DNA from: Eledone cirrhosa
Lineage: Eukaryota
Direction: 5' to 3'
Assembly: GCA_964016885.1 (NCBI GenBank)
Contig: OZ024749.1
Coordinates: 42,966,001 to 43,030,000 of the forward strand
DNA length: 64,000 nt
Shown: one piece after another, positions 8,117 through 48,127 of the stretch
Layout of the letters: each line of letters opens with the position of its first letter
Position numbering within the stretch: position 1 is the stretch's first letter
The notes under the pieces: generated by a model
The model's input: only the letters and a program-made list of their open reading frames with translations
What the model was told of the DNA's origin: nothing
The model's database searches: none
Program-made: the position numbers and the translations under genes

Positions 8117-8228
8117 CTGAGGAACTGGAATCATATATCTATATAATTAGGGAGTGTATATATTCCAGAGTCAGGCCAGATCGATATAGATCGAACCTTG
8201 AGCTAACCAATAGCGAAACGCGCGTCAC
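8117..8228 (+). ncRNA. Expanded hammerhead-like motif (CUGAGGA...CUUGA-stem-GAAA-CGCGCG-UC)
   Basis: CTGAGGAAC, hairpin CTGGAAT/ATTCCAG, CTTGA-GCTA-accaa-TAGC-GAAA-CGCGCG-TC. Same frame as 48038-48127; stem I not evident. Confidence 0.55.
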
Positions 8229-9527
8229 CAATCAACAAAACGTAATGAAGACTTAGCAAATCGTCCTTGTATTATTATTATTATTATTATATATATACAT
8301 ATATATATATATATACATATATATAGATATATATATATATATATATATACATATATATACATATATATATATATATATATACATATATATACATATATAT
8401 ATATATATATACATATATATACATATATATATATATATATATACATATATATATATATATACATATATATATATATATATGAGAGAGAGAGAGAGAGAGA
8501 GAGAATGAGAGATAGAGAGAGAGAGAGAGAGAGAGAGAGAGAGACTTAAGTGGTAGATTTAATATCATTTATTCAATGTCTCGTATGATATATACATGTA
8601 TAATAGACAAGCCAATATTTGAAATAAAATTTCCTCTGGTAAATACTTTACAACATAAGTTTCCCAGTCGTGACGTTATCGTTATGACCACAATACCAAT
8701 TTCTGAAACTTTACTTTAAACAAGACAACGTATTATATATTTAGTAAAAGCAAAATCCATACAGACTAACATATAATTATACTTTGTATACAGGGAGGAA
8801 AAATAATATGATGACGGATGTCTAGCAAATAACCAGCTTTACACCGGATGTGTAGGCATCAAGAAAATTTAATCGTTCTTATTCGTTTCCAATCTCTATT
8901 ATGTCTTCTGGGAATTAGACGCTTTTATGACTAAACGTCTGGTGTAGAGCGGATAAACACACACACACACACTCACATATATATATATATATATACACAT
9001 ACATACATATATATGCATATATATATACATACATATATATACACATACATATACATATATATACATACATATATATACATATACAAACATATATATACAT
9101 ATACATACATATATATACATATACATAGATATATATATATACTTACATATATAGATACATATATACTTACATATATAGATACATATATATACATATACAT
9201 ACATATATATACATATATATACATATACATACATATATATACATATATATATATATACATACATATATATACACATACATATATATATATATACATACAT
9301 ATACATACATATATATACACATACATATATATATATATACATACATATATATATATACATACATATATATATATACATACATATATATATATATACATAC
9401 ATACATATATATACATACATATATATACATACATATATATACACACATATATATACACATACATACATATATATACACATATATACATATATATACACAT
9501 ACATACATATATATACATACATACATA

Positions 9528-9767
9528 TATGAACGATTAAATGAAAGCTGGCGAGAGCTTCAATATAGAAAAGAATCGTCTGTACTCCACCAACATGCTA
9601 AAATAGAACATAAGGGCAAATTAGAGAACATAGAAATAAAAATAAAATCTACACACAGAAAAGACGCAACGTTTAGACAAATCACAGAGGCAATAAACGT
9701 AAAGGAACTCCAACCAAAATTAAATAGAAAACATGAATGGAATAGCAACATCATAACTTACAATTAA
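9528..9767 (+). pseudogene. C-terminal fragment of a Penelope-like element GIY-YIG endonuclease
   Basis: Manual translation: [79 protein letters not shown]. Shows the R..E(H), S.L..H...H and R.I.EA......P.LN.K.EW pattern; 5'-truncated at a microsatellite. Confidence 0.8.
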
Positions 9768-9961
9768 TGACATAATGAAAACACACACACATAGAACAAA
9801 CAACCAACCAGTAACATGTAAATAAACAAATAAATAAACAAATAAAAACACACACAGACACCCGGATGTAACACATGCGCAAACTAAGCACACAACACAC
9901 ACAAAACAAGATGGCGTAGAACAGAAAAAAGGAGAGACACAAAACAAAGAAAAGAATCCCA

Positions 9962-10004
9962 GTCACTGAAGAGGTCACAGAATATGTGTCGAAAGAGCTT
10001 TGAC
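9962..10004 (+). ncRNA. Minimal hammerhead in the 3' pseudo-LTR of the Penelope-like fragment
   Basis: GUCA-CUGAAGA-GGUCACA-GAAUA-UGUGUC-GAAA-GAGC-UU-UGAC, ~200 nt after the GIY-YIG stop. Confidence 0.75.
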
Positions 10005-10401
10005 AATATATGAATAACCGTCCGGTTGTGGAACCAACCAACCAAAAAGAAATTTATAAATGTTTAAATTTATAATTTAATTTATAATAAATTGGAGTGA
10101 AAGCAACTGATTCGTGTGTTTCTTATTGGCAACATGACCCTCCCAAAGTATAACAATATCGGTTTCAACACACGTTTTCAGATAAAGAATCTTGATAAAC
10201 AAATTCAGAAACGAAATATATATATATATATATATATATATATATATATATATATATATATATATATGTATGTATATATATATATATATATATATATATG
10301 TATATATATATGTATATATATCCCAAATTAAATTAAGGTGACGTGCGCCATATTCACTGCAGAATAAGCTCAAAGATTCCAATTAATAGTTCCGAGCATT
10401 T

Positions 10402-43782: not shown

Positions 43783-46300
43783 TATATATATATATATATA
43801 TATATATATATATATATATATATATATATATATATATATATACATACATATATATATATATATATACATATATATATATATATATATATATACATATATA
43901 TATATATATACATATATATATATATATATATATATATACATATATATATATATATATACATATATATATATATATACATATATATATATATATACATATA
44001 TATATATACATATATATATATATATACATATATATATACATATATATATATATATACATATATATATATACATATATATATATACATATATATATATATA
44101 TACATATATATATACATATATATATATATATACATATATATATATACATATATATATATATATACATATATATACATATATATATATATATACATATATA
44201 TATACATATATATATATATATACATATATATATACATATATATATATATATACATATATATATATACATATATATATATATATACATATATATATATATA
44301 CATATATATATACATATATATATACATATATATATATATATACATATATATATACATATATATATATATATACATATATATATATACATATATATATATA
44401 TATACATATATATATATACATATATATATATATATACATATATATATATATATACATATATATATATATATACATATATATATACATATATATATATATA
44501 TACATATATATATATACATATATATATATATATACATATATATATATACATATATATATATATATACATATATATATACATATATATATATATATACATA
44601 TATATATATACATATATATATATATATACATATATATATATACATATATATATATACATATATATACATATATATATATATACATATATATATATATACA
44701 TATATATATATACATATATATATATACATATATATATACATATATATATACATATATATATACATATATATATACATATATATATACATATATATATACA
44801 TATATATATACATATATATACACATATATATACACATATATATATACATATATATATACATATATATATACATATATATATACATATATATATATACATA
44901 TATATATATACATATATATATACATATATATATATACATATATATATATACATATATATATATACATATATATATATACATATATATATACACATATATA
45001 TATATATTCATATATATATATACATATATATATACATATATATATACATATATATATATACATATATATATATACATATATATATACATATATATATACA
45101 TATATATATACATATATATATACATATATATATACATATATATATACATATATATATACATATATATATATATATATATATACATATATATATACATATA
45201 TATATACATATATATATATATATACATATATATATACATATATATATACATATATATATACATATATATATACATATATATACATATATATATACATATA
45301 TATATACATATATATATACATATATATATATATACATATATATACATATATATATATACATATATATATACATATATACATATATATATACATATATATA
45401 TACATATATATATACATATATATATACATATATATATACATATATATATACATATATATATACATATATATATACACATATATATATACATATATATATA
45501 TACATATATATATATACATATATATATATACATATATATATATACATATATATATATACATATATATATACATATATATATACATATATATATACATATA
45601 TATATACATATATATATACATATATATATACATATATATACATATATATATATATATATATACATATATATACATATATATATATACATATATATATATA
45701 CATATATATATATACATATATATATATACATATATATATACACATATATATATACACATATATATATACACATATATATATACATATACATATATACATA
45801 TATATATACATATACATATATATATATACATATATATATATACATATATATATATACATATATATATATATATATATACATATATATATATACATATATA
45901 TATACATATATATATATATACATATATATATATACATATATATATACATATATATACATATACATATATATATACATATATATATACATATATATATATA
46001 TACATATATATATACATATATACATATATACATATATATACATATATATACATATATATATATATACATATATATATATACACACATATATATATATATA
46101 TATACACATACATATATATATACATATATATATAGATATATACACATACATATATATATATATATATATATATATATATATACACATATATATATATACG
46201 CATATATATATATATATATATACATATATATATATACGCATATATATATATATATATATACATATATATATAGATATATACCTACACGCACACACATATA
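43783..46300. repeat. ~2.5-kb ((TA)nCA)m array
   Basis: Direct reading; source of the 800-aa YIYIH ORFs. Confidence 0.98.
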
Positions 46301-47238
46301 TAAATTGTGTAAACATCATATTTTATATAGAAGTGGCATCTAAAAGACCAGAACTATTTCATTCAATATAAATTATCAGAGCTTTCCTTTTGAACGAAAC
46401 AATTCTAGTCAAGTAGAAGCCATTTTTCCTTTAAACATGATATATGTGTGTGTGTGTGTGTGTGTGTGTGTGTGTGTGTGTGTGTGTGTGTGTGTGTGTG
46501 TGTGTGTGTGTGTGTGTGTGTGTGTGTATGTGTGTGTGTGTGTTTGTGTGTGTGTGTGTATTATGGTTGATGCTTATTATGTCTATGCTCTTGTAAAGAA
46601 ATGTGGAAACTTAGTCGGTTCTTGACGGATTTGAACAGAAACAGAAGTAACACACAGATTGAGATAACACTCCCCGTTAAGTTGGTTGTTTTATTGTCTT
46701 TACTGAATCTGCCGCTCACCGACTGAAAATAGATAACTATATGTCATCGTGAAAATTATTTACTGCATTAGATAAGAGGGTTTCTTTAACATAAAATCTC
46801 CTTTTGTATTGATAACGTTATCAAACTGACACGAAGAACGAAAAAGAAAATCGTTTGAAATAATCTATGTGTTGTCGAAGAAAGTGAAAGAATTTGCGAA
46901 ATTTTTACGAACGAAAGTTAAATTCGTAATGGATATTTTTACGATCCATAGACACACATAACTGTGATTGCTAATTTCTGGTTAAATAGAGTTAAGAGGC
47001 TGAATATTACTTATCTGTAGTGTAGACAGCAGCCAGGTTATAGAAAGTACTATTTACTGCACTAGTGTCTATTCTAGGAGGAGGCGATATCAATGAAAAA
47101 TATAAAGGTGGATAAACTCCTCTGTTGAAACTAGTTTACGAAACAGTTACCCCCGGGATTGTTGTTTTGTCTGAAGTATGAGCTAAATTTCTCTAAAATC
47201 GTTCATTTCTCTCTTACAAATATGAAGGCCACATTATA

Positions 47239-47451
47239 CAGGGTGATCACAAAATACTCCTTGATTTCAAATATTTATAATATCAAACCTTAAATGAATA
47301 TTCTTACAATATTGGTGGCTACAGTCGCATAAACTAACAAAGTTTCATTCCTCGTTGGCTCAATCGACTCGATCCGCTAGATGGCAGTGTAATTCAAGAT
47401 GGCGTTCCCTTCACAATAACGTTGCTGGTGTGTTTTTTGGTGGTCACCCTG
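47239..47451 (+). mobile_element. Internally deleted Tc1/mariner element
   Basis: TA|CAGGGTGATCAC ... GTGGTCACCCTG|TA. Retains a probable transposase start (ATGGCGTTCCCTTCACAA..TGGTGTGTT) just before the right TIR. Confidence 0.8.
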
Positions 47452-48037
47452 TATAATATAGTCTAACCAAATACAAACTACAGAGACAAACATTCTAGTT
47501 AAACAGAGATAGATATTTAACATGTGATGATAACAGTGGGAATGACTTTAACCATAGTTCAGCTCCAGAGTTGAACTCGAGCTAAACAACACAAGTAATA
47601 ATAACTACAACAGAAAACACACCAAATACAACAAATATACAATTAATCTAAGCTTCAACGTGTATATTTATGTGTTGTACGACGACTACTGTTGGAGAAG
47701 TCGTTGAAAAGTATACTCTTCAAATCATAAAAGACACATAACACATAAACAAACACACACTCAACAAGTAGATTTTATTTCGTTGGCCATTAACAGGTAA
47801 TGACGTATCTCAGCACATAATGATATGTAGTATAACAACATTTGTGCCTACGTAAAACATCCGTTTGCTATATATATGATATATATATGTATATATAAAT
47901 ATATATAGTGTAGATAGAACGCTGAACTACTGGTATTGGTACCAAATCAAGCACTCTATGCACAGGCAGAGTGTGTATATAATAGAAAAAACCGAGGAAG
48001 TTTCGTTTACATATGAAAAATATTTATTGCGTATGGA

Positions 48038-48127
48038 CCTGTTACGCGCGTTTCGCAGAGGATTGGCTCAAGATGACCCATAGGAGTTATGGACCCAACT
48101 CCAGTATCGATTGGTTCCTCAGACTGG
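48038..48127 (-). ncRNA. Expanded hammerhead-like motif, second copy
   Basis: CCAGU-CUGAGGA-ACC..GGAGUU/AACUCC..GGU-CAUCUUGA-GC-loop-GC-GAAA-CGCGCG-UA-ACAGG. Confidence 0.6.

What the first reader, a model, noticed from the sequence alone, without database searches (positions are those of the whole stretch)
8117..48127. Expanded hammerhead variant with two hairpins between CUGAGGA and GAAA
Seen: two loci 40 kb apart (8117-8228 +, 48038-48127 -) have dissimilar internal sequence but the same frame: CUGAGGAAC, a hairpin domain, CUUGA-GC, a short hairpin, GC-GAAA-CGCGCG-U(C/A)-AC. Established: GAAA-CGCGCG-UC is a classic palindromic stem III plus cleavage site of Penelope-type HHRs. Inference: this is a four-way-junction HHR variant with an extra conserved CUUGA linker, or a core with two alternative 5' strands (CUGAGGA vs CUUGA). 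It may overlap published HHR variants, which I cannot check.
Basis: partly seen in the sequence, partly recalled or inferred. Interest (0 to 1): 0.7.

Follow-up and report, generated by a model that had tools for sequence, protein, structure and literature searches.

The report
Long-armed hammerhead of Hydra retroelements
Both sites are broken end pieces of a known kind of animal jumping gene carrying a hammerhead-type RNA with one unusually long arm, not a four-way ribozyme; the notable part is that several subfamilies reached hundreds of copies with changed catalytic letters, so the cutting step (untested here) is likely weak or dispensable.

Summary
The letters are present; the reading is largely wrong. 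The 3' half (UUGAGC-N9-GCGAAACGCGCGU) has 3,275 copies in this genome. It is a type I hammerhead whose CUGANGA strand lies about 60 nt upstream, across one long irregular, covarying helix II. CUUGA is a strand of that helix, not a second core, and there is no four-way junction. The shared CUGAGGAAC is coincidence. At locus 1 it belongs to a different repeat on the other strand. At locus 2 the AC is a rare change from GC. In related subfamilies the motif lies in the pLTRs of Hydra-clade Penelope-like elements, about 210 nt before the ORF; for the window's own two subfamilies that link is inferred. Published Hydra hammerheads span at most 24 nt there. Among exact-pattern hits, changed cores outnumber canonical ones: CCGUCGA 811 and 586, in two lineages that do not group (p-AU 0.006), CCGACGA 282, CUGANGA 620. 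Cleavage and expression are untested.

The parts
8162..8274 (+). 5'-truncated pLTR fragment of subfamily B: helices IIb and IIc with the terminal hairpin, GAAA (8215-8218), helix III (AC-GCGC-GU), C17 at 8226, helix I 3' strand and the short tail. It lacks its own core strand and the 5' strands of helices I and IIa, so it cannot form a hammerhead.
   Evidence: homology starts at query position 13 of 8150-8280 in all but one of the best hits
8197..8201 (+). CUUGA: 3' strand of helix IIc with one bulged pyrimidine, pairing with UCAGG at 8171-8175; not a catalytic strand
7913..8136 (-).
7965..8019 (-). Ordinary Penelope-type minimal hammerhead of repeat X (CUGAAGA at 8014-8008, 9-bp helix II with one mismatch, GAAA, palindromic UAUAUA helix III); the first helix I base after the site is changed in this copy
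   Evidence: read from the sequence
8137..8161 (.). AT-rich spacer between the two insertions; 8146-8154 resembles the reverse complement of the tail end of subfamilies A/B (possible short inverted tail; inference)
47906..48141 (-). Solo pLTR fragment of subfamily C with the whole motif and the long tail, flanked by (TA)n
48116..48122 (-). Core strand C3-A9, CUGAGGA (canonical)
48055..48115 (-). 61-nt unbranched helix II domain: IIa, 2-nt bulge, IIb (UGG/CCA), AG/G internal loop, IIc ending in CUUGA (48072-48068), terminal hairpin. This copy has private changes at 48115, 48113, 48112, 48097 and 48073; the first breaks G10.1-C11.1.
48037..48054 (-). GAAA (48054-48051), helix III AC/GU with palindromic GCGC loop, A17 at 48043 (predicted cut between 48043 and 48042), helix I 3' strand pairing with 48128-48123
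47952..47972 (-). ACUC...GAGU hairpin in the tail, just beyond the first common 3' end of copies; found at a like distance in 5 of 6 tails examined
   Evidence: lead from earlier notes

Best explanation
Both loci are truncated terminal-repeat (pLTR) pieces, inferred to come from Hydra-clade Penelope-like retrotransposons, and carry a type I hammerhead motif whose helix II is extended to a single irregular arm of about 60 nt that likely folds as predicted; self-cleavage is untested and is likely weak and not required for transposition. SHOWN: the motif's anatomy and fixed register across about ten subfamilies; double-sided changes in helices I and II; its place in both pLTRs of a whole element, 204-213 nt before the ORF, for subfamilies A/A' (and at a like distance in D/E); the Hydra motifs of that ORF; insertion into (TA)n with inverted 5'-truncated partners; hundreds of copies with CCGUCGA, CCGACGA or a one-base core insertion. 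INFERRED: in subfamilies with an intact core (A, C, older B2) the RNA would cut itself after GUC/GUA, probably as a dimer through the palindromic helix III of two pLTRs of a tandem transcript, or helped by the element's protein, as reported for other Penelope hammerheads. Family C kept CUGA.GA while only N7 varied, which points to selection on the core there. In A', B, D and E the core strand changed and the elements kept multiplying, so cutting became reduced or dispensable, while the long arm kept its pairing. INFERRED by homology only: that the window's own subfamilies B and C were Hydra elements with an ORF.
For: Copy numbers with zero reversed-pattern controls: 3,275, 620 (17), 811 (22), 282 (54), 2,800 (63), 586 (73). 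Named structure on 29 copies: 81% of 840 cells paired, 20 of 29 pairs changed on both sides, slid controls 28-35%. RNAalifold on 12 of these copies independently gives 19 helix II pairs, 8 with compensatory changes. L137 holds an inverted truncated copy, pLTR, ORF, 2.1-kb 3' UTR, pLTR and (TA)n, with CCGUCGA in both pLTRs. Ten of the 30 best ORF-start hits keep the motif 204-213 nt upstream; the other 20 are cut or rearranged before it. L228 has an 858-aa open frame with WRAY, ADKT, GLYRDD, CxCX5C, YIG and CRLC, matching the Hydra description in PMC8557442 section 11. Family C: 74 of the first 100 listed copies have CUGANGA, with N7 = G 34, A 19, C 11, U 10 (hand count). PMC11167929: hammerhead mutants did not affect insertion in vitro, and that hammerhead cut only with protein. 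PMC4209133: dimer model and low activity. PMC3088659: U4C, A6C and an insertion after A6 lower activity.
Against: No cleavage or RNA data (no RNA holder listed). Single-sequence folds give the long helix for A, D1, E1 and G but other folds for A', B, C and E2, and no z-score is notable. RNAalifold gave no pairs on the full 29-copy alignment and did not predict helices I or III on the subsets. The structure was drawn by eye from these same sequences, which favours it over slid controls. Within D/E alone only 3 pairs change on both sides, no more than shuffles (417 of 500). No ORF link was found for subfamily C or B. The intact ORF in L228 has an A'-type pLTR cut before the core, so its own core is not seen. 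The Pfam GIY-YIG hit is below the curated cut-off (E 0.009). The unit is 4.9 kb, longer than published Hydra elements (<3 kb).
Confidence: 0.75

Rival explanations
1. CCGUCGA (U4C + A6U) is a working core variant: the long helix II, its conserved AR/G internal loop, or the element's protein restores cleavage, which is why two lineages reached the same letters.
For: The same double change is fixed in A' (811 hits) and D1 (586 hits); one origin is rejected (p-AU 0.006). C3, G5, G8, A9, GAAA, A15.1-U16.1 and UH are kept. U4C is tolerated in a viroid (PMC3088659). A Poseidon hammerhead is protein-assisted.
Against: Other lineages took other changes (CCGAAGA; 8-nt CUGAAAGA and CUGAAGGA), which looks more like relaxed constraint. 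A6 changes gave low activity in PMC3088659 (A6C was tested, not A6U). The tree rests on 125 columns and the test was chosen after seeing it.
Confidence: 0.2
2. The arm was co-opted: it is a protein-binding or positioning element for the RT-endonuclease (or for translation), and selection now acts on the fold and not on catalysis.
For: Register and the AR/G loop are nearly invariant across subfamilies whose ORF starts are only about 46% identical. Two helix II pairs changed on both sides inside the lineage that already had U4C. The motif lies just upstream of the two common 3' ends of copies.
Against: The covariation inside D/E is thin. A separate ACUC...GAGU hairpin in the tail is a better-placed candidate for the start signal. 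In Poseidon, 5' truncation to +20 of the ORF still allowed insertion. Many inserted copies lack part of the arm, which says nothing either way about the template RNA.
Confidence: 0.25
3. The conserved letters reflect a DNA-level internal promoter in the pLTR, and the pairing is a relic of an ancestral ribozyme.
For: pLTRs are described as likely promoters (PMC11167929). An overlap of promoter and ribozyme is known for L1Tc (PMC3383444; search listing only).
Against: Double-sided changes in 20 of 29 pairs are not expected of a DNA motif. No promoter test was run here.
Confidence: 0.08
4. One reading: a four-way-junction hammerhead, or a core with two alternative 5' strands (CUGAGGA or CUUGA).
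For: CUUGAG-like letters are highly conserved at a fixed distance from GAAA.
Against: CUUGA pairs with UCRGG and reads CUCGA in 2,800 D/E hits. The 9-nt 'hairpin' covaries with the strand after the core. The shared frame occurs at 5 places, one of them a chimera.
Confidence: 0.03

Closest known systems
Hammerheads of Hydra-clade Penelope-like elements (Craig et al. 2021, PMC8557442; seen: passages, section 11, supplement parts 1-2 with Files S1 and S2, supplement searches)
   Same: Type I motif in the pLTR; C-terminal GIY-YIG ORF with RWK-like, DKT, GLYRDD and CxCX5C motifs; (TA)n targets; inverted 5'-truncated partner and tail. A mismatch at 10.1-11.1 is common there too.
   Different: The listed Hydra motifs have 3-7 bp stems II and loops of at most 10 nt (File S2); here about 60 nt with a bulge, a conserved internal loop and a terminal hairpin. 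The paper calls canonical hammerheads universal in Hydra; here the A', B, D and E subfamilies have non-canonical cores. The unit is 4.9 kb with a 2.1-kb 3' UTR, against <3 kb.
Minimal hammerheads of metazoan PLEs (Cervera and de la Pena 2014, PMC4209133; seen: parts 1-2 of 4; supplement not read)
   Same: Short, palindromic helix III suited to dimer cleavage; longer than usual helix II; thousands of solo and opposite-strand copies.
   Different: Helix II there is 6-8 bp with an unpaired base after A9. The core variant reported is U3-A8, not U4C/A6U or an insertion.
Poseidon_Ac hammerhead (Frangieh et al. 2024, PMC11167929; seen: parts 1-2 of 4)
   Same: pLTR hammerhead upstream of two internal copying starts; AT-rich targets; catalytic mutants did not impair insertion in vitro.
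   Different: There the ORF starts inside stem II; here about 210 nt downstream. The present case is genomic rather than in vitro: whole subfamilies with changed cores multiplied.
Natural hammerhead core variants (Perreault et al. 2011, PMC3088659; seen: passages and section 8)
   Same: U4C, an A6 change and an insertion after A6 are known singly, with lowered activity.
   Different: Those are rare single cases; A6U and the U4C+A6U pair are not in the passages read; here they are fixed in hundreds of copies.
Non-circularly permuted hammerheads (Eckert et al. 2023, PMC10085705; seen: outline and section 13)
   Same: A hammerhead that standard searches miss.
   Different: The block order here is C-G-S, the ordinary type I, without pseudoknots.

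Membership tests
Type I hammerhead ribozyme | Core strand CUGANGA | tested here: met
   Met at locus 2 and in subfamilies A, C and B2. Absent from the locus 1 copy. Not met in A', most of B, D and E.
Type I hammerhead ribozyme | GAAA, A15.1-U16.1 and UH site | tested here: met
   GAAAC and GU invariant in 29 of 29 aligned copies, partly by the way copies were selected; one copy has G at position 17
Type I hammerhead ribozyme | Three helices in the order I-II-III with open helix I | tested here: met
   Helix I 74.5% paired, 4 of 5 pairs with double-sided change; helix II 80.8%, 16 of 22; helix III invariant, so uninformative. RNAalifold recovers helix II only.
Type I hammerhead ribozyme | G10.1-C11.1 closing pair | tested here: inconclusive
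   G-C in 18 of 29 copies; A.C in D, E, F and in the locus 2 copy. Mismatches here are common in published Hydra motifs.
Type I hammerhead ribozyme | Self-cleavage after H17 | not testable with these tools
   The indirect test on 5' ends of copies was inconclusive
Type I hammerhead ribozyme | Rfam model match at gathering score | tested here: not met
   Hammerhead_1 scored 14.7 bits (cut-off 34) on a chance pairing at locus 1; no hammerhead hit at locus 2
Hydra clade of PLEs | RWK-like motif, DKT, CxCX5C linker, C-terminal GIY-YIG with CxxC and CxH | tested here: met
   L228 ORF of subfamily A' against PMC8557442 section 11; Pfam GIY-YIG only E 0.009. No protein tree was built.
Hydra clade of PLEs | pLTR tandem and inverted layout, tail, (TA)n targets | tested here: met
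Hydra clade of PLEs | ORF linked to the window's own subfamilies B and C | tested here: inconclusive
   No link found; membership inferred from the shared motif and tail
Hydra clade of PLEs | Short element (<3 kb) with canonical short hammerhead | tested here: not met
   4,856 nt between the pLTR motifs in L137; 60-nt helix II; changed cores
Naiad PLEs | N-terminal GIY-YIG; motif present in published Naiad consensus sequences | tested here: not met
   The endonuclease is C-terminal; GAAACGCGCGT has 0 hits in the supplement text (line breaks could hide a match)
Non-circular permutations (SGC, CSG, GCS) | Block order other than types I-III | tested here: not met
   Order C-G-S

The most novel reading that the evidence does not exclude
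One sub-lineage of Hydra retroelements grew a conserved 60-nt arm on its hammerhead and then repeatedly changed the catalytic strand, twice to the same CCGUCGA. Either CCGUCGA is an undescribed working core rescued by the arm or by the element's protein, or a ribozyme was turned into a non-cutting RNA signal. Either way the genome holds a natural series of intact-core and changed-core elements that tests directly whether Penelope elements need their ribozymes.
Probability: 0.35. Interest if true: 0.65.

Novelty: new variant of a known kind. Interest (0 to 1): 0.4.

Why it matters
The role of hammerheads in Penelope-like elements is called unclear in PMC8557442, and one in vitro study found cleavage unnecessary for insertion. 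Here, subfamilies with changed cores reached hundreds of copies, appear no older than intact-core ones (small samples), and include one with an open 858-aa ORF. That is genomic support for dispensable or reduced cutting, and it gives matched natural pairs for a simple cleavage assay. The long arm also shows why descriptor searches with short stem II limits miss such motifs. The specific claim of the finding, a four-way or two-core ribozyme, does not hold.

Tried and rejected
Rfam: 469 matches at E<=1 in the window; the 150 listed are microRNA-type models on microsatellites plus one Plasmodium RNA, all below gathering score; local scans gave no real hammerhead hit. Naiad origin: considered because Naiad_Ovul is marked HHR_half_core; rejected. 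Nematis, Neptune and Poseidon: GIY-YIG and RT fragments beside several loci are read as separate insertions; the linked ORF has Hydra motifs. CpG decay as the source of 'canonical' cores: checked in B2, where CUGAUGA 36, CCGACGA 19, CCGAUGA 7 and CUGACGA 3 of 100 listed (137 in all; hand count) fit two real subfamilies better than decay; some CUGACGA copies in B may still be decay. In vivo cleavage footprint, counting distinct loci by hand among (TA)n-abutted short copies whose 5' end falls at the predicted cut: A 3 of 23, A' 2 of 16, C about 9-10 of 24 after merging two duplicate pairs, but in C the site overlaps a TA that matches the target, so the test is inconclusive. Metagenome scan with a loose pattern: 80 loci returned of at least 120, none with both the AGUC/AAUC strand and a helix III. 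No RNA holder listed. Runs X5 and X6 gave no laid contigs, which proves nothing. Differences in run X2 at the 3' half probably mix in sister subfamilies and were not interpreted. Protein search gave 29 unnamed relatives. The core state of the basal F-I subfamilies rests on one or two copies each; no census was obtained. Searches for an ORF joined to the family C tail found none. Literature: 7 full-text searches gave no listing that describes a 60-nt helix II or CCGUCGA in PLEs. Not seen: Lunse et al. 2017 on small PLE hammerhead variants (recalled; not held), the supplements of PMC4209133 and PMC10085705, Repbase and Dfam entries; any of these may hold the motif. PMC13282606 (octopus repeats) has no mention of hammerhead, ribozyme or Hydra (passages).

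
Full report
Observation. The motifs are at the stated places, and two GAAACGCGCG matches exceed chance (0.12 expected). Rfam recognises neither locus. The window lies in a 3.0-Gb animal genome rich in microsatellites; a cephalopod host is my inference and was not tested.

The 3' half is a large repeat family. TTGAGC-N(3-20)-GCGAAACGCGCGT has 3,275 matches and the reversed control 0; in all 100 listed rows the spacer is exactly 9 nt. Reading upstream shows the true core strand about 60 nt before GAAA; CTGANGAGC-N(45-75)-GCGAAACGCGCGT has 620 matches. 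Subfamilies differ in the 9-nt spacer and in the strand just after the core, in a complementary way: A, B (locus 1) and C (locus 2).

Locus 1 is a chimera. 7950-8136 matches a separate repeat at 98-99%. Eleven of 11 other copies carry the same CTGAGGAAC and none has GAAACGCGCG within 300 nt. That repeat reads on the minus strand and has its own ordinary minimal hammerhead at 8019-7965. The family B copy starts only at about 8162, so it has lost its core. Its 23 closest listed relatives show what was lost: 2 are truncated, none of the other 21 has CUGANGA, 19 have C at position 4, and 10 read CCGACGA. Locus 2 is a complete family C motif, but its AC after the core is a minority form (5 of 100 listed; about 90-100% of depth in four DNA runs has G there).

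Structure. Twenty-nine copies were picked by hand from the 209 motif rows and nearby loci, to cover about ten subfamilies; they align in fixed register. The order is helix I, core, then one arm: IIa (about 9 bp with mismatches), a 2-nt bulge, IIb (CAG/CUG, UGG/CCA or UAG/CUA), an AR/G internal loop, IIc (UC/GA, a bulged pyrimidine, then 3-4 bp) and a variable terminal hairpin; then GAAA, a 2-bp helix III with a palindromic loop (GCGC in A-C, AAUU or AUAU in most of D-I), UH and helix I. For this structure 81% of 840 cells pair, 20 of 29 pairs change on both sides, and slid controls give 28-35%. The structure was drawn from these sequences, and kin share changes, so the shuffle counts are not probabilities. 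RNAalifold found no pairs on all 29, but on 12 of them (family C left out) it predicted the same arm, 19 pairs with 8 compensatory, and on 20 D/E copies most of it. It did not predict helices I or III. Single folds support the arm in 4 of 8 copies, with no notable z-scores. CUUGA is thus the 3' strand of IIc and reads CUCGA in D/E (2,800 hits).

Host element. Long stretches around A' copies share up to 3.6 kb of upstream sequence that includes RT and GIY-YIG frames. L137 shows an inverted truncated copy, a pLTR, the ORF (frameshifted), a 2.1-kb 3' UTR, a second pLTR 4,856 nt after the first, the tail and (TA)n; both pLTRs read CCGUCGA. Among the 30 best hits to the ORF start, 10 keep the motif 204-213 nt upstream. 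L228 has an 858-aa open frame with WRAY, ADKT, GLYRDD, CxCX5C, YIG and CRLC. These are the features given for the Hydra clade (PMC8557442 section 11; supplement sequences). More distant Hydra families in the same genome carry either the same long arm (D/E; ORF starts about 46% identical) or an ordinary short helix II (L249-L259). No ORF link was found for B or C.

Core states. Exact-pattern counts: CUGANGA 620, CCGUCGA 811 in A', CCGACGA 282, mostly B, CCGUCGA 586 in D1; D2 has CCGAAGA and E an 8-nt core. The patterns differ in stringency, so these are lower bounds and only roughly comparable. Family C kept the canonical core in 74 of 100 listed copies with N7 free, as expected if cleavage was selected there. 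On a tree of 70 copies built without the core (125 columns, many weak forks) CCGUCGA falls in two clades with canonical cores branching around each; holding the 7 such rows together is rejected (p-AU 0.006; test chosen after seeing the tree). Median pairwise differences were D1 0.06 (n=3), E 0.10 (9), D2 0.11 (4), A' 0.12 (6), A 0.12 (9) and C 0.15 (10): changed-core families look no older, on small samples. Inside D/E two helix II pairs and one helix I pair changed on both sides; the number of such pairs does not exceed shuffles, while the cell count does.

How it likely works. From published work on PLE hammerheads, an intact-core motif would cut after GUC or GUA, weakly, as a dimer through the palindromic helix III or with help from the element's protein, trimming tandem transcripts. 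U4C, A6 changes and an insertion after A6 lower activity in other hammerheads, and catalytic mutants did not hinder insertion of a Poseidon element in vitro. The simplest reading is that cutting became reduced or dispensable in several lineages while the arm kept its fold. Whether the arm helps catalysis, binds protein, or is only slow to decay is open; a tail hairpin noted by earlier agents, and seen here in 5 of 6 tails, is a competing candidate for the copying signal. A search for copy ends at the predicted cut was inconclusive. Neither window copy is likely to work: locus 1 has no core, and locus 2 has a broken closing pair and several other changes.

Novelty. Hammerheads in Hydra pLTRs are known; those listed span at most 24 nt between the core strands. 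A 60-nt conserved arm and amplified CCGUCGA cores did not appear in 7 searches or in the sections read, but a key paper on small PLE variants, several supplements and the repeat databases were not seen. An earlier unchecked note in this genome reports long stems II in such motifs.

Noticed in passing
window 7913-8136 (-): Young repeat (98-99% identical copies, 5,469 first-look candidates) with an ordinary minimal hammerhead at 8019-7965, a fixed 5' end beside (TA)n, two 3' end points and back-to-back pairs; whether it has an ORF was not determined.
   Followed up: partly
window 9961-10005 (+): A second ordinary hammerhead-like motif (CUGAAGA, short helix II, GAAA, palindromic GAGCUU) in a repeat also found in 13 fetched loci, some of them overlapping.
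   Followed up: partly
window 17712-18265 (+): A 19-bp-period tandem array holding many CTGAGGA copies; it explains the excess of CTGANGA in the window.
   Followed up: no
window 47952-47972 (-); L012, L137, L257, L265: ACUC...GAGU hairpin about 72-88 nt into the tails of subfamilies A, A', C, D and E; not found in the one B tail checked.
   Followed up: partly
L137:1640-1670 and other A' copies: A pyrimidine-rich run ending in AG lies just upstream of helix I, like a splice acceptor; PMC4209133 reports an intron end at helix I in Drosophila Penelope.
   Followed up: no
L249-L256, L259: Other Hydra families in this genome carry short-helix hammerheads 225-265 nt before the ORF, so the long arm marks one sub-lineage.
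   Followed up: partly
L238, about 310 nt before the ORF start: A canonical short type I hammerhead (retrozyme-like) next to a truncated A-type pLTR.
   Followed up: no
L228:4883-7000 (+); L140, L143, L004, L011, L021: Other Penelope-like RT or GIY-YIG frames inserted beside these elements, one with a long asparagine-rich insert; (TA)n tracts collect nested insertions of many families.
   Followed up: no
L446-L459: Family C extends at least 600 nt upstream as non-coding sequence with internal repeats and (CA)n; no ORF was reached.
   Followed up: partly
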